Assembly: GCA_051251855.1 (NCBI GenBank)
Contig: JBPOGI010000002.1
Coordinates: 736,001-800,000, forward strand
DNA length: 64,000 bases
DNA from: Roseibacillus sp.
GTDB lineage: Bacteria > Verrucomicrobiota > Verrucomicrobiia > Verrucomicrobiales > Akkermansiaceae
Direction of reading: 5' to 3'
Positions 12,001 to 21,000 of the stretch are shown one piece after another. The position numbers were made by a program. Within the stretch, counting starts at the first letter, position 1. Every line of letters starts with the position of its first letter.

Positions 12001-15000
12001 TCACGTTGCCGAATGCACTGAGCCAAGGCATGAGGCAGGGGGCTTGAAAGACGACGGAGCGGTCGGGGCCAGGGCCGTCAATCTCGCGGTCGCCGACGAT
12101 GATACCGCCGTCGGAAATCTCGTTGAGGCCTGCCAACATGGTGAGCACGGTGGATTTTCCGCAACCGGAGTGTCCGATGAGGGAGATGAATTCGCCTTGC
12201 CGGATGTTGAGGTTGAAATCCTCGACGACACGGAAGTCGTCCCCGTAAGGGTTGGGGTAAGCTTTGACGAGATTCGAGATCTCGACGAATTTCGGGTTCA
12301 GCTTTTCGGGCATTGGTTCGTAAAGTTCTAGACTCATGCTGCGGAGCGGGGTGTGCCGGGTTGAGCGGCTTTGTTCTTGAGGCGAGGAGTTCCCGAGATG
12401 GGTGTGAAATCTTTGGGCCGGACGTCGGGCATGGGAGTGACCTGACTGGTGGCGAGCTCTTTGGACTCCTTGTTCAGCTGCATCATAAAGGAGGTGATCT
12501 CCGACTTGAGGCGCATGTATTCGGGATGGTCATTGAGAGTTTGGCGATCGCGAGGGCGTTCCATGTTGACGACGAACTCTTTGGCGAGGGTGGCCTCGGG
12601 TCCCATGGTGAGCGGGATGATGCGATCAGCCATGAGGACGGCTTCGTCGACATCGTTGGTGATCATGACCACGGTGCGGCGGTCGGTTTCCCAGATGTTG
12701 AGGATTTGGTCCTGCAGTTCGGAGCGGGTGAGGGCGTCGAGGGCGGAGAGAGGCTCGTCTAGTAGGAGCACTTCAGGGTCGAGGGAAAGAGTGCGGGCGA
12801 GGGAGGCGCGCTGGCGCATACCGCCCGAAAGCTCGTGTGGATTGCGCTCACCGGCATGGCCCAGTTTGACCATTTCCACATAGTGGGCGATTTTTTCGTT
12901 GAGCTCGGCTTTGGAAAGCTTGGGGAAAGCGGTTTTGACGGCGAGCTTGATGTTGTTGTTCACCGTTAGCCAAGGAAGGAGGGAGTAGTTCTGGAACATG
13001 AGGCCCAAGTCGGGGCCGGGTTCGGTGACGAGTTTACCGTTCTTGCGAACTTCGCCGGTGGTGGGAGGCTGGAGGCCAGCGAGGAGGGACATTAAGGTGG
13101 ACTTGCCTGCTCCGGAGAATCCGATGATGGCGACGAATTCGTTCTCCTCCACAGCCAGATTGATGTCTTTGAGGACGACTGTTTGGTTGGTTGTGGGGCC
13201 GAAGGCGACCGATACGTCGTTGAGCTCAAGGTAAGCCATGGTTCACCTCAGCTCATTGTGGGCCAGAAAGAAGGAGTGGTCGCGATTCTGCTATGAATAC
13301 AATTCATGGATAGGGCTTGTATTCTTGCTGGGGGTTCATTTTGGTTGAAGGGGCGGGGTTGCAGGAGCTCGACGCGGAGTCATTGAGGCTGCGGAGTGGA
13401 AGCAGAAAATTTTCTGTTTTGAGTTTTGGTGAGACGGACCGGTGGGGCGGACTAAAGTTCCGTGGTCCGTTTGGGCCGGGTGCGAAAAAAAGCTCCGAGT
13501 GGGCTCGGAGCTTCTTGAAGGGTGAATGAGATACTTGTTAGGCCGCTTCGCCGTATGATGCTTCTTTCATCACGGTGGCCAGAGTGGTATAGGTGATGGT
13601 CCAAGCTTCTTTGGTATCGGGAGTGAACTCGTCGCCGAGTCCTTTTTCGAGAGTGTCGAGGAGGGCTGCTCCTACCGTCTCGTAATGCTCTGCTTTGACG
13701 CCGTAGCCAACATGGCGTTTACCAAGGCTTTGGACAGCTGGGACAAGCTCGCCGAGGGTGTCGAGCCCCTTGACGGCAGCCCCGATCATTTGCATGAGCT
13801 TCTTGCCCTGTTCCTCCATGTTCGAGTCGGCAAACATCGGTTTTAAAGAGGGGTCGAGTTCGAAGAGTTTTCCGTAGAAGAGCTCTGCTGCGGTATCGGA
13901 GATAGGCTTCACTTTCTCCCAGGATTCCTGGACGAGATTTTTCTGATGAAGGGTCAAAGGGCCTTCGGGTTCGGTTTCTTCTGGCATTGGTTTGGTTGGT
14001 TCTGGTTTTGGGGGCTCAGTCGTGGAGCCGCCGAAGATTTTCTTAAAAAAGGAGATCATGATATGGAGAGAAGGAGCCCGCCATTGGGGGCTGGAGGGCT
14101 CCGTTGGTTAATTGTTTCGAGGAGGCTACTTTGGAGTTGCCAACATATAGTTGACGGCATTGGTCACTTCTTCGTCGGTGAGACTGGGGGTGCCTCCGCG
14201 AGCAGGCATCTCGCCATCGGGTCCTTGAAAGCCGTTGATGGCGTGATCAAGGAGAACGGCGAGTCCCTTCTCGGACCGAGTTTCCCATTCTTCCGCTTTC
14301 GCAAGGGAAGGGGCTCCTTCCTCTCCTTCGTCGTGGCATCCCGAGCATTCGATCTGGTAGATCGCTCGTCCGGCAAGGAGGTCAGGATCGGAGGGGATCC
14401 AATCCCACGGGTGCTCGGGCTTGATTTCCTTTTCAGTTTCAGCTGCTTCCTCTGGCGAGGATTTACAGGAGGAAAGGAAGGCGAGGCTGAAGCAGGAGAG
14501 GAGAAGAAATGGCTTCATTATCCAAAGTATCCAGGTGAATTGTTAAGAGGTGGGGATACGGATGACGATACCTCCCATGACGTCGTTCTTCTTAAACTCT
14601 GGGTAGTCTGGTTGGCGGTTTTCGTGGTTGTTGTGGCATTCCCAACAAGCAGGAGCGACGGCTTTGTCGGGATAGATTCCAACAAAGTATTCTTGTCCGC
14701 CAATCTCTTCGAGTGCAGTCCACTTCTTTCCGTAATAATCGCTGGCAGGGTCGGATACCTCAGCGAGACCTTTCTCTACGGCAGGAGTTTTCTTCTTGGC
14801 GTTCTCCATGTTGAGGGGCCAAGTCGACTGAAGAGAGTAGGAGAAGTCAAAGGGCTTGCCTTCGACGGAGTCTACTTCTTCTGCGCCTTCGCGGAACATT
14901 TGAGCAGGGAGGAGGAGGGCTTTTTCTTCGGCCCATTCTTCGTGTGCTTTGATGACCTTCTCATCTCTCACGAGACGGTTGACGATCTTGGTCGCGTAGA

Positions 15001-18000: not shown

Positions 18001-21000
18001 CTGTAATGGATTTTTGAAGGAGAGTGGATGCGGTTTCGTTGAGTTGGCGGGGCATCAAGAACGAGGCTCGCTCGACGACGTCTGCTTTGAGTCCCAGTTT
18101 TTGAATGGCTTGAGCGGCTTCGAGACCGAGGAGTCCACCCCCGACGACTGCGGCTTTGGATTTACCCTTGGAGGCTGAAATAATGGACTTGAGGTCGACT
18201 ATATTGCGGTAGAGGAAAACGTTGGGATGGTCACCGCCGGGAATGGGAGGGACGAAGGGGCGTGAGCCGGTGGCGAAGACGAGGATGTCGTAGTTGTGCT
18301 TGGTTTCATCCGAAAGGGTGACGCACTTGAGCTTGGGGTCGACTGCGACGACTTCGGTGCTAGTGAGGAGGGTAATTCCTTTTTCCTGATACCACTCTTC
18401 GCTGTTGAAGATGAGCTGGCTGGCATCCTTGTGGTCAACGTAGGTTGAGAGGTTGATGCGGTCGTAGGCGGGGAGAGGTTCTTTGCCGACGACGGTAATC
18501 TCCAGGTTAGGGAAAATCTTCGATTGGGTGAAATACTCACAGAGCTTTCCTCCGACCATGCCGTTGCCAATCACCAAGAGGCGAGAACCTTTGGGCAACG
18601 CCTGGCGGCGGCTTGCCTTCTTGTTCTTGGATTGACCTTGAAAGGCGGACTTCACTCTTTGAGTTGAGCATTCGGGTAACCAATAGTTTGGAGCTTGCTT
18701 CGATTCTTTAGGAAAGTGGGACCCCGAAAGAATGAGTTTTGTTAATGCTCTATTTCGCTCCTGAAAATCGCGGAAATGGATGATTGGATTTCATGAGAGG
18801 TGGCCTTGGTTGATCGTCACTTTGATGGGCACTATCTCCGACTGCGCTCCCCTCGGTGATGATGGCTCGAGGGAGCGAGTGTCTCTTATACGCGAGTGTG
18901 AATTTGGTCGTCTCGACTGGATGAGTAGGGCTTCTATCCAATTGGACTCAGACTCACTGACTAGAGGGCTGTGCTACTTGTTAAGTGACAAAAAAACTCC
19001 GACGAATGAATCGTCGGAGCTTTGAGAAGAGAAAAAACTTGAGACCTACGTCTAGGCGGTGGCGGAACCGTCATCGAAGGAGACGAGGCGTTGGAGTATA
19101 ATCATCAAGCGGTCGAGGAAGAATCCAATGACTCCTACCACGAAGCAGGCGAGGATGATGTTGGCAAAGGATTGTGAGGAGCCATTTTGATATTCGTCCC
19201 AGACATACTTGCCGAGTCCGTCGGATGAGGAAAGGGCTTCAGCGGCGATGAGGACCATCCAGCCCACTCCGAGTGAGATGCGCAGGCCGGCGAAGACAAG
19301 CGGAAGGGAGGAGGGAATGACGATTTTGAAAAGGCGGGACCAGAAGCCGAGCTTGAGAACCTTGGCGACATTGAGGTGGTCTTTATCGATGGCAGAAACG
19401 CCGAGCGCGGTGTTGACCAACGCAGGCCAGAGGGCGCACATAGCAACGGTGCAGGCCGAGAAGATCATGGCGGGGTTGGTTTGCAGAAAAGACAAGGGGT
19501 TGAGGGAGTCGTTCATGAAAACGAAGAGGGGATGGCTCGCTGGATCGGGGAGGAAAAAGGCGCCGACGATGATTTGGAAAATAAGGAGCCAAACGACCGG
19601 TGATACTGGGCGGAAGATTGAAATGAGAGGCGTCATGGAAGCCATGAAGATACGATTGAGTCCGCACATGATACCGAGAGGAATGGCTACGACAGCGGCA
19701 ATGAGGAACCCTACGAAGACGGTGGCGATAGAGCGCTTAGTCTGCCAAAAAATGGTAGCGGTGCGAGGGTAGGTTTGTTCGCTCGTGCTGGCAGCGCGTT
19801 CGCTGTTTTTGACGACAGACTTCGCTTCTTTGAGGGCTTCTTTTCCAGTAGCAGCGGCGGCGAGTTGCTGGGTGTCTTCTTTGGCCTTGGCGATGAGGGT
19901 TGCTTCTTTGACGCTGCGGTTTCCAGTAGTGAGAATGTCGATGAGCTTCTTGTAGTGCTGCACTTCGTCGGCTACCTTGTTCGTTGCGAGTTGAGATGAT
20001 TTGACCTCTTCAGGAGGGTTGTCTCGAATGAGGTCGAGCTCGTCTTTAAGCAGGGTTTCTGCATTTTTTTCCTTCTCTTCGAAGGCGGTGCTTTCTTTCA
20101 CGAGAGCGATGAGTTTTTCAGGGGATGCTTCCTTCAGCGCGACCTTTTCTGCGAGGGTTTCTAAGGCGAGGTCTCGAGCGTCTTCGGCGGCATTATTCTT
20201 CGCCTTGATGGCATCATAGCGAGCTTGCACGGGGGCGAGCTTGGCGTTCATTTCTTCCTTGGAGGAGGCTGCGATTTCGACTGCCTTTTTTTGGAGCTTG
20301 GCTTGCTCGGCTTCGAGGGTGATGAGTTCTTTCTTGGCGCGTTCGATTTCTTCCAACCGTGGCTTGCCAGTGAGGCCGAAGGCGTTCTCCTTCTCGTTCT
20401 CGCGCTCATTAAAACGTCGGGCGTCGTTGAACGCGGTGCTGACGGCAGCTGGACCGGGGACTTCGCCGGACTTGGTCTTCAGTTTAGTGATGACGGTGGC
20501 CCAGATGAAGATGAGAATGGAAACAAAGACGATAGGAACGACCATGTATTGGGCGATGTCTTTGACTTGTTTCTGAGGCTCCTCGCCAAAGAGGAGTCTA
20601 ACGGGCGGGTCGAGAACCTTAAAGCCGCTGACATCGATGACCTTGAGAATTCCGTATTTGATTTTGTCCTTGGGTGAGTCTGACATAGCGAAGCTGTGAG
20701 CTGGCCGAACTCTTGCAGCCCTCGGGCCAAGTGGCGGAGTTGGGCTGAGAATTTTGAGAAGAGATGAACTCGACTCCATGAATTTGATTCATGAATTTTT
20801 CCGTTTTACGGTTTTTGAATGATAATACGGAAGCCGATGTTGTAGCTACGGCTTTCGGGGCCAGAGCTGTAGCGGTAGGCTGACCGGCAGCTATTGGCGG
20901 TTCGGTTCCAAGTTCCCCCGCGAATATTTCTACCGTCACCTGTTTCGGGGCCTTGGGGATCGTTCCCGCCGCTGGCTTTCTCGGAATACCAGTCGGCACA

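What a model noticed while it worked through the whole genome (the two positions that open the first line are those of the whole stretch)
13538..18655. Conserved five-gene redox operon: membrane-anchored NirB-like flavoprotein, decahaem cytochrome c, Tll0287 haem lipoprot [...]
g02135-g02131 encode an NAD(P)H flavoprotein like the N-half of NirB fused to about five membrane helices, a membrane-anchored ten-haem cytochrome, a Tll0287-type protein, a small cytochrome c and a single-domain globin. The order is fixed across Verrucomicrobiales, inside or apart from the nitrate-assimilation cluster: an undescribed trans-membrane electron chain, plausibly for nitrite or NO handling.
Evidence so far: Ten CxxCH motifs and TM segments. 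Same five genes in the same order in 5 of 6 loci examined (the sixth is cut after gene three); 2 lie with nitrate genes, 3 do not. Cytochrome in 9 of 41 relatives, at least 1682 homologues; only weak local likeness to NrfA or octahaem nitrite reductases, E about 1e-4.
(Added by a program. Inside this text positions count along the whole contig: contig position 736,001 is position 1 of the stretch shown here. "Call 12" and the like, gene names such as g00115 and contig names such as C1 are that model's own, and its searches are not shown. The text may have been shortened before it was handed on; [...] marks where a part breaks off. The agent that wrote the report below was given it as the finding of a first reader that could run no searches.)

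Follow-up and report, generated by a model that had tools for sequence, protein, structure and literature searches.

The report
Nitrogen-starvation transmembrane haem electron chain
Five neighbouring genes, shared by bacteria of many phyla and carrying the same control element as the nitrate-uptake genes, appear to build an unstudied wire that carries electrons from NADH across the membrane to outside-facing haem proteins, most likely to reduce nitric oxide or nitrite.

Summary
The five genes are real. Corrections: the cytochrome has eleven haem sites (10 CxxCH plus a conserved CX4CH), and the flavoprotein is FAD/NADH + [2Fe-2S] + five helices with two invariant His pairs, a probable di-haem cytochrome b. 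The cytochrome's C-terminal half is a hydroxylamine-oxidoreductase (HAO) core (hhalign E 1.6e-21) that has lost the catalytic haem-4 motif but kept its catalytic His: it is neither NrfA nor HAO. The module is not confined to Verrucomicrobiales: 591 of 600 scanned genome hits, many phyla; flavoprotein-cytochrome-Tll0287 in this order in 74 of 80 loci, all five genes in 32. A palindrome precedes this operon, five nitrate transcription units and the amt genes; 7 of 7 carriers have nitrate reductase against 41 of 221 genomes. NirA is intact, so nothing is replaced. Best reading: an NAD(P)H-driven periplasmic nitrogen-oxide reductase paired with a cytoplasmic NO-scavenging globin; substrate and catalytic site are inferred. 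No paper found in nine searches. This scan noted the module before on other genomes.

The parts
16643..18655 (-). FLV: NAD(P)H flavoprotein (NirB N-half-like FAD and NAD domains) + BFD-type [2Fe-2S] + five-helix membrane domain, 670 aa
   Evidence: (model pLDDT 89)
17207..17347 (-). BFD-like [2Fe-2S] domain, C439/C441/C473/C476
   Evidence: PF04324 residues 437-483 (E 4e-4, under cut-off); the four Cys in 74/74, 74/74, 75/75, 75/76 loci
16649..17173 (-). Five-helix membrane domain, His pairs H579/H593 (helix 3) and H649/H663 (helix 5): probable di-haem cytochrome b
   Evidence: helices in model; His 77/77 each; weak DUF4405 34/64, cytochrome b561 20/64, Ferric_reduct 3/64 members; K/R-rich loops fit N-in topology. 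Haem binding inferred
15165..16634 (-). CYT: N-terminally membrane-anchored 11-haem cytochrome c, 489 aa
16080..16502 (-). CYT N-terminal five-haem domain (small-tetrahaem/c3-like haems 1-4 plus CX4CH haem 5 at 16137-16157); invariant K96
   Evidence: Pfam Cytochrom_c3_2 47-143; model confidence here is low (pLDDT 53-83)
15330..15959 (-). CYT C-terminal six-haem domain = HAO/octahaem core (HAO haems 2,3,5,6,7,8) without the haem-4 motif and without the C-terminal helical bundle; H342 aligns with HAO His268
   Evidence: hhalign P 99.4, E 1.6e-21; Foldseek top nine rows HAO-clade; VIA Z 7.1-6.3; free-standing forms P0266, P0269
14543..15178 (-). TLL: Tll0287/DUF3365 (Cache-fold) mono-haem c lipoprotein, CWECH, no distal Cys; invariant R58, Y61, E80, LPAQ, R96, Y114, N183, H185
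   Evidence: present in 78 of 80 loci
14126..14518 (-). Small class I cytochrome c lipoprotein (His62/Met104), accessory
   Evidence: 38 of 80 loci
13538..14059 (-). Single-domain globin, no signal peptide, Y62/Q84/H116 invariant (B10/E7/F8 labels recalled)
   Evidence: 61 of 80 loci, a truncated globin instead in 4
18780..18794 (.). Palindromic ATGA-N7-TCAT box 125 bases upstream of FLV (LysR-type T-N11-A; the class label is recalled)
18990..19019 (-). Terminator-like hairpin with T-run after ntrB, upstream boundary of the unit
   Evidence: read from the sequence; not listed by the consensus scan
13485..13513 (-). Terminator-like hairpin with T-run after the globin, downstream boundary
   Evidence: read from the sequence; not listed by the consensus scan
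13293..13307 (.). Same box upstream of ntrC
20778..20792 (.). Same box upstream of ntrB
24360..24374 (.). Same box between nasS-like gene and the divergent LysR gene, overlapping the LysR start
26728..26742 (.). Same box upstream of the porin
1931..1945 (.). Same box upstream of nirA
24373..25332 (+). LysR regulator, candidate binder of the box (inferred)
106..1920 (-). Intact ferredoxin-type nitrite reductase nirA (context: the module does not replace it)

Best explanation
An NAD(P)H-driven, quinone-independent electron exporter that feeds a periplasmic nitrogen-oxide reductase, switched on with the nitrogen-starvation/nitrate-assimilation genes. Path: NAD(P)H -> FAD -> [2Fe-2S] -> inner haem b (H579/H649) -> outer haem b (H593/H663) -> five-haem domain -> HAO-type six-haem domain of CYT -> catalytic haem. 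Because CYT has lost HAO haem 4, the catalytic haem is most likely supplied by the Tll0287 lipoprotein (no distal Cys, invariant Arg/Tyr/Glu/Gln set); the small cytochrome c is an optional carrier. The likeliest substrate is NO (or nitrite/hydroxylamine) escaping from, or meeting, cells that grow on nitrate, reduced in a multi-electron step, plausibly to ammonium that the co-regulated Amt takes up; the cytoplasmic globin deals with NO on the inside (dioxygenation to nitrate), perhaps re-reduced by FLV. Shown here: genes, cofactor motifs, HAO homology and loss of haem 4, distribution, shared control element, coexistence with NirA/NirB. Inferred: haem b binding, direction of flow, physical complex, which haem is catalytic, substrate, product.
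For: Cofactor chain in gene order and topology. The same membrane domain is also fused, with a BFD cluster, to an unrelated FNR-type NAD(P)H reductase in P0312 and P0405: two independent couplings to NAD(P)H. CYT belongs to the HAO/NrfA superfamily, whose characterised members all show nitrite or NO reductase activity in vitro (PMC9250108, passage). HAO catalytic His268 equivalent H342 is kept in 80 of 80. TLL accompanies CYT in 78 of 80 loci and is more conserved than CYT (mean identity 0.575 against 0.509 over 59 shared loci). Box shared with five nitrate units (6 hits, 0.62 expected) and with amt genes in G000 and G022; box at >=12 bits upstream of FLV in 9 of 28 Verrucomicrobiota loci, 6 of them away from nitrate genes, against 0.9% of shuffles; sigma-54 motif in 18 of 38 other loci against 1.3%. 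7 of 7 carriers hold nasA against 41 of 221. Globin of one of two unrelated classes in 65 of 80 loci; a globin inside a nitrate operon detoxifies NO in Bradyrhizobium (PMC4724949, passages).
Against: No catalytic haem is identified: CYT has no CxxCK and no haem-4 motif, and eleven nearly invariant spare His match eleven haems in number, as a pure wire would. The one stand-alone Tll0287 protein tested binds NO weakly and behaves like an electron carrier (bioRxiv 10.64898/2026.02.01.703092, part 3; a Cys-bearing subfamily only distantly like this one). Only 7 of 41 nitrate-reductase genomes carry the module, and carriers already have NirA or NirB, so it is accessory. The box and sigma-54 signal nitrogen limitation, not NO stress. 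The globin is missing from 15 of 80 loci, some of them cut by contig ends. Exporting electrons from NADH would cost proton-motive force. The membrane domain reaches no Pfam family convincingly (best E 2.7e-6, none for the window protein).
Confidence: 0.5

Rival explanations
1. Split-active-site enzyme: TLL docks into the emptied haem-4 pocket of CYT, so that its haem together with CYT D340/H342 rebuilds a HAO/NrfA-like centre that reduces nitrite to ammonium in the periplasm, a second, NADH-fed assimilatory nitrite reductase. (A specific form of the best explanation.)
For: H342 and D340 80 of 80, with M286, R287, M304 and a His at 306-313 (68 of 81) conserved around the emptied pocket; TLL near-obligate; TLL carries a spare invariant His (H185, 76 of 77) and CYT haem 10 lacks the helix that bears its ligand in HAO (37-95 residues after the last motif against 102-182); amt shares the box.
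Against: No structural evidence of docking was obtained; in 5 loci TLL is transcribed ahead of FLV, not next to CYT; NirA/NirB are present anyway; M286 is Ile in split forms.
Confidence: 0.2
2. CYT itself is the catalyst, at a new open haem: CX4CH haem 5 (with H152/H169/H182, or K96 as an OTR-like Lys ligand) or haem 10; TLL and the small cytochrome only carry or buffer electrons.
For: MccA and cytochrome c554 lost the same haem yet keep a five-coordinate haem in the N-terminal module (PMC9250108, passage); OTR uses a Lys outside a CxxCK motif (PMC12285233, passage); K96, the GCHNxHDN stretch and NQNxxLxPNEKM are highly conserved.
Against: Five invariant His are available for the five N-terminal haems; the five-haem domain matches electron-transfer families; GCHN[YF]HDN was a scan pattern, so its conservation in the 80 loci is partly by selection.
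Confidence: 0.15
3. Redox valve or reductase for something other than inorganic N-oxides (NOX/ferric-reductase logic: O2, Fe(III), organic N-oxides or nitro compounds used as nitrogen source), expressed under nitrogen starvation when reductant is in excess.
For: FAD-to-two-b-haem layout on helices 3 and 5 recalls NOX/ferric reductases (recalled), and EF-hand or cNMP fusions of the same membrane domain exist; the regulon is nitrogen limitation in general (amt); TLL's conserved pocket could bind an organic ligand, as Cache domains do.
Against: Strict nesting in nitrate-reductase genomes, nitrate genes within the locus in 35 of 80, NasT/ANTAR neighbours, and the globin.
Confidence: 0.17
4. One-electron nitrite-to-NO generator: NO crosses the membrane and the globin traps it as nitrate for NasA (an uptake shuttle), or NO serves as a signal.
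For: A HAO protein without the cross-link reduces nitrite (PMC8042395, title and passages); the globin faces the cytoplasm and the haem proteins the periplasm.
Against: Energetically wasteful beside an ABC nitrate/nitrite transporter in the same regulon; eleven haems are not needed for one electron.
Confidence: 0.07
5. Inward chain: periplasmic oxidation (hydroxylamine, NO, sulfide) with electrons passed to NAD+, or a respiratory NrfA-like DNRA enzyme as database labels suggest.
For: Source labels 'ammonia-forming cytochrome c nitrite reductase' and 'NrfA'.
Against: No CxxCK in 120 of 120 proteins, no haem-4/NrfA haem-1 motif; no region for the HAO Tyr467 cross-link; regulation is assimilatory; N-oxide couples are too positive to reduce NAD+ (established knowledge).
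Confidence: 0.05

Closest known systems
Hydroxylamine oxidoreductase / octahaem cytochrome c clade (N. europaea HAO 1FGJ/6M0P, Kuenenia HOX 4N4J, reductive Kustc0458 6H5L, IhOCC 4QO5)
   Same: CYT 226-416 is collinear with HAO haems 2, 3, 5, 6, 7, 8 and their His ligands; His268 position kept.
   Different: No haem-4 motif, no haem 1, no C-terminal helices (His459, Tyr467), an extra N-terminal five-haem domain and membrane anchor; 11 haems.
NrfA/NrfHA and octahaem nitrite reductase
   Same: Local likeness of haem pairs (profile E 5.7e-10); periplasmic multihaem with membrane anchor.
   Different: No CxxCK, no catalytic haem 1, no NrfH/NapC quinol oxidase; electrons appear to come from NAD(P)H; assimilatory control.
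NirB (assimilatory NADH nitrite reductase)
   Same: FAD, NAD and first [2Fe-2S] domains (TIGR02374 1-470, E 7e-126).
   Different: No sirohaem/[4Fe-4S] half, no NirD; a cytochrome-b-like membrane domain instead.
NOX / ferric reductase / Fre-MsrQ-MsrP trans-membrane NAD(P)H electron export (recalled, not read here)
   Same: Flavin reductase coupled to two stacked b haems on His pairs of two helices, delivering electrons outward.
   Different: Glutathione-reductase-type flavoprotein plus [2Fe-2S] rather than FNR type; only weak Pfam likeness (3 of 64 members); acceptor is a multihaem cytochrome.
Bradyrhizobium narK-bjgb-flp-nasC (PMC4724949, abstract and passages)
   Same: Single-domain globin plus NAD(P)H flavoprotein inside the nitrate-assimilation regulon, handling NO.
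   Different: Flp is described as a cytoplasmic donor to NasC and Bjgb; no membrane haem domain, no multihaem cytochrome, no Tll0287 protein.
ptdABCDEFG operon of marine bacteria (bioRxiv 10.1101/2023.11.21.568154, passages)
   Same: Function-unknown operon with NAD(P)-binding flavoprotein, ferric-reductase-like membrane protein and periplasmic multihaem cytochromes.
   Different: Seven separate genes with a porin, a cNMP/4Fe-4S protein and penta/tetra/decahaem proteins; no globin or Tll0287 named; no nitrate link reported. Sequence homology not tested.
Tll0287/DUF3365 sCache_heme family (bioRxiv 10.64898/2026.02.01.703092, parts 1-3 of 6 and passages)
   Same: Stand-alone Cache-fold haem c protein (Pfam E 9e-14).
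   Different: No distal Cys; distinct subfamily (no PDB match); the paper states stand-alone genes show no association with signalling outputs and that their function is open; here the gene is fixed in a redox operon.

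Membership tests
HAO family | Collinear haem core and fold | tested here: met
   hhalign P 99.4, E 1.6e-21 against 19 HAO-like proteins; Foldseek E 3.5e-4; VIA Z 7.1, rmsd 3.8, 199 aligned
HAO family | Eight haems with five-coordinate catalytic haem 4 (PMC8042395) | tested here: not met
   No CxxC between haems 7 and 8 of CYT in 81 of 81 sequences; gap at HAO C229-H233
HAO family | Distal Asp267/His268 | tested here: met
   H342 80/80 aligns to His268; D340 80/80 lies one off Asp267
HAO family | C-terminal trimer helices with His459 and (oxidative) Tyr467 | tested here: not met
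   Median 51 residues after the last motif against 134; no conserved His there (53 of 81)
NrfA / ONR | Catalytic haem at CxxCK (or CxxCH) with Arg/Tyr/His triad (PMC12285233) | tested here: not met
   0 CxxCK in 120 proteins and 81 locus sequences; motif at that position absent; NF008339 15.6 bits against cut-off 595
NrfA / ONR | Quinol-oxidising partner NrfH/NrfB-CD/CymA | tested here: not met
   No such recurrent family among the neighbour clusters annotated in 80 loci; whole genomes not searched for it
NirB | FAD/NADH and BFD domains | tested here: met
NirB | Sirohaem/[4Fe-4S] catalytic domains | tested here: not met
   No NIR_SIR match; model covered 1-470 of 794, 421.7 bits against cut-off 578
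Ferric-reductase-like / cytochrome b561 di-haem membrane domains | Two His pairs 13-14 residues apart on two helices | tested here: met
   H579/H593, H649/H663, 77/77, on model helices 572-594 and 633-669
Ferric-reductase-like / cytochrome b561 di-haem membrane domains | Family profile match or fold match | tested here: inconclusive
   Weak hits only; no PDB sequence match; Atlas best 0.83 unnamed; domain not folded alone
Ferric-reductase-like / cytochrome b561 di-haem membrane domains | Binds two b haems and passes electrons across the membrane | not testable with these tools
   needs protein
Tll0287/sCache_heme | CxxCH in Cache scaffold | tested here: met
   PF11845 52.6 bits over cut-off 24.1; C178/C181/H182 invariant
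Tll0287/sCache_heme | Cys distal ligand of Tll0287 itself | tested here: not met
   Only Cys are the lipoprotein C26 and the motif
Single-domain (flavohaemoglobin-type) globin | Globin fold, proximal His, Tyr/Gln distal pair, no signal peptide | tested here: met
   position labels recalled
Single-domain (flavohaemoglobin-type) globin | NO dioxygenase activity | not testable with these tools
   needs assay
Bjgb-Flp system | Globin and flavoprotein co-transcribed under nitrate control | tested here: met
   gene order and shared box; transcription itself not shown
Bjgb-Flp system | Homology of FLV to Flp; soluble donor to NasC | not tested
   Flp sequence not fetched; FLV is membrane-bound
ptd operon | Porin, cNMP/4Fe-4S protein, penta-/tetra-/decahaem set | tested here: not met
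   Not in the conserved core; the porin seen in 15 of 80 loci goes with the nitrate transporter

The most novel reading that the evidence does not exclude
A new branch of nitrogen assimilation: a NOX-like NAD(P)H exporter wired through a HAO-derived eleven-haem protein that has given up its own catalytic haem and takes it in trans from a Cache-fold haem lipoprotein, forming a two-protein active site that reduces NO, nitrite or hydroxylamine to ammonium in the periplasm of aerobic bacteria of at least seven phyla. It would be the first enzyme function for a stand-alone Tll0287 protein and a quinol-independent, assimilatory counterpart of DNRA now mislabelled as nrfA.
Probability: 0.25. Interest if true: 0.92.

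Novelty: categorically new. Interest (0 to 1): 0.75.

Why it matters
It would give a function to stand-alone Tll0287 proteins, which a 2026 preprint calls an open and hard question, add a haem-4-less branch to the HAO/NrfA evolution scheme, and show NADH being spent directly on periplasmic multihaem chemistry. Right or wrong on substrate, database labels of this cytochrome as NrfA are unsupported and can inflate DNRA gene counts. Each part has a known fold; it is the assembled system that fits no family tested.

Tried and rejected
Plasmid collection: no match. PDB sequence searches with TLL and the membrane domain gave nothing; Foldseek of the whole FLV model returned only flavoprotein hits and the membrane domain could not be folded alone (both jobs used). 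Sigma-70/terminator scan uninformative (3 promoters against 5.5 expected; 26 terminators against 19.4) and did not list the two hairpins read by eye. Rejected: that the module replaces nitrite reductase (NirA in G000, in 5 of 5 carriers and beside the module in L138; NirB over cut-off in 4 of 5 other carriers). Rejected: a C-terminal His as universal ligand of haem 10 (53 of 81); M286 as universal ligand (Ile in split forms); TLL M94 as obligatory ligand (63 of 78). PF13447 does not ring in five carrier genomes (control silent, so uninformative). Hcp not found in G000 (95% complete). Literature: nine searches listed no description of this operon; only openly licensed PubMed Central papers and bioRxiv are held, and supplements (bioRxiv closed; none opened) could hold a mention, notably the datasets of the Cache preprint and the ptd tables.

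Full report
Observation. The five ORFs are at the stated place on the minus strand, nearly contiguous, and match Pyr_redox_2 plus Fer2_BFD, cytochrome c3/c7, Tll0287-like, class I cytochrome c and globin families. They sit between ntrB and ntrC of a nitrate ABC transporter, with a nasS-like gene, a LysR gene and a porin further up. A hairpin with a T-run lies on each side of the unit (read; the consensus scan did not list them). An intact nirA lies at 106-1920, and a flavodoxin, an Fe-S/DmsC-type protein and nasA follow just outside the window.

FLV. Residues 26-489 match the first 470 of 794 positions of NirB, below cut-off; the sirohaem half is absent. The model (pLDDT 89.3) has a glutathione-reductase-type fold, a BFD domain and five membrane helices. 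Over the loci with this region, the four BFD Cys are 74/74, 74/74, 75/75, 75/76 and H579, H593, H649, H663 are each 77/77; in the independent protein alignment three are invariant and H663 nearly so. The pairs are 14 apart on helices 3 and 5; K/R-rich loops place the flavin domain and H579/H649 inside. Of 64 members, 34 hit DUF4405, 20 cytochrome b561 and 3 Ferric_reduct at E<=0.1, none for the window protein itself. The domain has 572 representatives at E<=1e-10 among 50%-identity clusters; of five long hits examined, two fuse it, again with a BFD cluster, to an FNR-type reductase with EF-hand or cNMP domains. Inference: a di-haem cytochrome b that exports NAD(P)H electrons. An acidic residue at 195 in 58 of 67 suggests NADH (rule recalled).

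CYT. One N-terminal helix, ten CxxCH and a CX4CH. The CX4CH is invariant in alignment A1 (56 of 56) and present in 119 of 120 protein hits; none has CxxCK. The model (pLDDT 81.8, weak in the N-terminal domain) hits HAO-clade structures first in Foldseek (best E 3.5e-4) and VIA (Z 7.1, rmsd 3.8, 199 residues; such Z alone is middling). To test this at residue level I fetched HAO-like genes, aligned 19 of the 27 loci (duplicates and fragments among those left out) and compared profiles: probability 99.4, E 1.6e-21, CYT 226-416 collinear with HAO haems 2, 3, 5, 6, 7, 8 and a gap at haem 4. Subtracting 26 from L104 numbers gives Asp267, His268, Tyr467, the functional residues named in PMC3814345 (passage). 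No CxxC lies at the haem-4 position in 81 of 81. H342 aligns with His268 and is 80/80; H240, H284, H322, H351, H389 align with His99, 204, 246, 279, 323. CYT ends a median 51 residues after its last motif, HAO-like proteins 134, so the helices bearing His459 and Tyr467 are missing. With the recalled HAO ligand assignment, five of six C-terminal haems keep their His, haem 10 has none in the usual place and H342 faces an empty pocket; by simple count, however, eleven spare His match eleven haems. The six-haem domain also occurs alone with a signal peptide (P0266, P0269), confirming a 5+6 division. Loss of this haem has precedent in MccA and cytochrome c554, which keep another open haem (PMC9250108, passages). 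HAO and NrfA defining features were taken from PMC8042395 and PMC12285233 (abstract starts and passages).

TLL, small cytochrome, globin. TLL is a lipoprotein (C26 67/75) with one CxxCH, no distal Cys, and invariant R58, Y61, E80, L90-Q93, R96, Y114, W120, N123, Y169, D171, N183, H185; over 59 shared loci its mean identity is 0.575, CYT 0.509, globin 0.615, FLV C-part 0.421. It is only distantly like the Cys-type Tll0287 gene elsewhere in the genome. The Cache preprint (parts 1-3 of 6 and passages) found a stand-alone member redox-like with weak NO binding and calls the function open; its main text has no mention of nitrite reductase or gene neighbourhood. The small cytochrome is His/Met class I. 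The globin has no signal peptide in most members and invariant Y62, Q84, H116; its closest solved relative is 3S1I (E 4e-28).

Distribution. These 80 are the closest hits, chosen through two CYT motifs, not a random sample. FLV-related ORFs occur in 77, TLL in 78, globin in 61, truncated globin in 4, small cytochrome in 38. FLV-CYT-TLL in order: 74 of 80; all five in window order: 32; rearranged forms exist. Nitrate genes lie in the same locus in 35 of 80, 21 of 43 with full flanks. In an even sample of the class, CYT is in 7 of 221 genomes, nasA in 41, and all 7 carriers hold nasA (hypergeometric 5e-6, overstated by kinship; six genera). Carriers keep NirA (5 of 5) or NirB (4 of 5 over cut-off) and a nasA-like gene (5 of 5). 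So the module is accessory to, and nested in, nitrate assimilation.

Regulation. I noticed ATGA-N7-TCAT upstream of FLV and ntrC; the search then gave six sites in the window against 0.62 expected, the four new ones upstream of nirA, ntrB, nasS/lysR and the porin. The genome has 39 exact sites; six of the ten best by a matrix from these six are by construction the window's, and the best other site lies between two ammonium transporter genes; the remaining high sites precede a beta-barrel, DoxX and unrelated genes. The matrix scores >=12 bits upstream of FLV in 9 of 28 Verrucomicrobiota loci (6 away from nitrate genes), 0 of 38 other loci, 0.9-1.4% of shuffles; a sigma-54 motif is upstream in 18 of 38 other loci and 3 of 28 Verrucomicrobiota loci, against about 1.2% of shuffles (66 of 80 loci had enough upstream DNA). 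A stricter pattern in five relatives gave 26 sites against 7 for the reversed control; of 15 looked at, sites precede ntrB, nasS/lysR, porin, an amt gene (G022) and the first gene of a rearranged module (G148), and about half precede unrelated genes. The box overlaps the LysR start, as autoregulation would (inference).

Mechanism. The parts give one consistent path: NAD(P)H, FAD, [2Fe-2S], two b haems, eleven c haems, then TLL and optionally the small cytochrome. Outward flow follows from redox potentials (established knowledge); it spends rather than conserves energy, fitting assimilation or detoxification. The HAO ancestry, kept His268 equivalent, nitrate regulon and globin point to a nitrogen oxide; the globin, replaceable by another class, points to NO, as in Bradyrhizobium (PMC4724949, abstract and passages). 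I put the architecture and regulon at about 0.85, a nitrogen-oxide substrate at about 0.55-0.6, the whole statement at 0.5. Where catalysis happens is open: TLL (favoured), a shared TLL-CYT site, or an open haem of CYT. Docking could not be tested.

Novelty. It fails membership of HAO, NrfA, NirB and ptd on tested features, and works most like NOX/MsrQ-type exporters (recalled) joined to a HAO-derived wire. The ptd operon (passages) is the nearest described function-unknown system but has another make-up. Nine searches found no description; PMC12175321 (passages) was irrelevant and bioRxiv 10.64898/2026.07.28.741245 (abstract and outline) concerns an anammox protein. Nine earlier notes of this scan describe the same module on other genomes; they are unchecked and not counted as support. 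My haem count, cytochrome-b reading and HAO idea were noted before I saw them; the split form was their lead, tested. Added here: the residue map to HAO with the missing haem-7 ligand and kept His268, the Verrucomicrobial box shared with amt, the genome-level nesting, and the FNR-type fusions.

Noticed in passing
G000:C6:731508-736044 (just left of the window; L135) and 11 of 80 loci: A 4Fe-4S/DmsC-anchor fusion protein and a flavodoxin or CysJ-like protein sit between nirA and nasA in Verrucomicrobiota and Planctomycetota: an unusual membrane-anchored partner for an assimilatory nitrate reductase.
   Followed up: partly
window 2317-11362: A 1835-aa secreted protein and a DUF1552/DUF1592-like gene pair (names recalled, not scanned) separate ntrD from nirA; in L024 nirA follows ntrD directly, so this block splits the nitrate cluster.
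   Followed up: partly
window 20806-21693 (-): FGE-sulfatase-domain protein inside the nitrate transporter operon; near the module in 5 of 80 loci.
   Followed up: partly
window 19052-20779 (-): NtrB permease with a long charged, coiled-coil-like insertion of about 250 residues before the permease domain, kept in relatives.
   Followed up: no
window 24373-25332 (+) and the six boxes: A LysR gene divergent from a nasS-like gene, with no NasT found in the genome by tblastn, appears to run a nitrogen regulon (nitrate genes, amt) in Verrucomicrobiota through ATGA-N7-TCAT; possibly undescribed, not searched in the literature.
   Followed up: partly
P0312 (951 aa), P0405 (1013 aa): The same di-His-pair membrane domain fused to BFD + FNR-type FAD/NAD domains with EF-hands or three cNMP-binding domains: NOX5-like regulated exporters of unknown context.
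   Followed up: partly
L140:6598-16096 (G000:C7): A second, Cys-type Tll0287 gene lies among persulfide-reductase, peroxiredoxin, sulfur-dioxygenase-like, SQR-like and ccoNO-like genes (labels by eye from translations), hinting that the canonical type serves sulfur chemistry.
   Followed up: partly
window 13960-14059 (-): The globin has an N-terminal amphipathic stretch and Pro-rich linker, conserved in close relatives, that may tether it to the membrane; most distant members lack it.
   Followed up: no
L086:7926-9965: FLV is in two ORFs (553 and 125 aa) in this locus, a possible broken or split copy.
   Followed up: no
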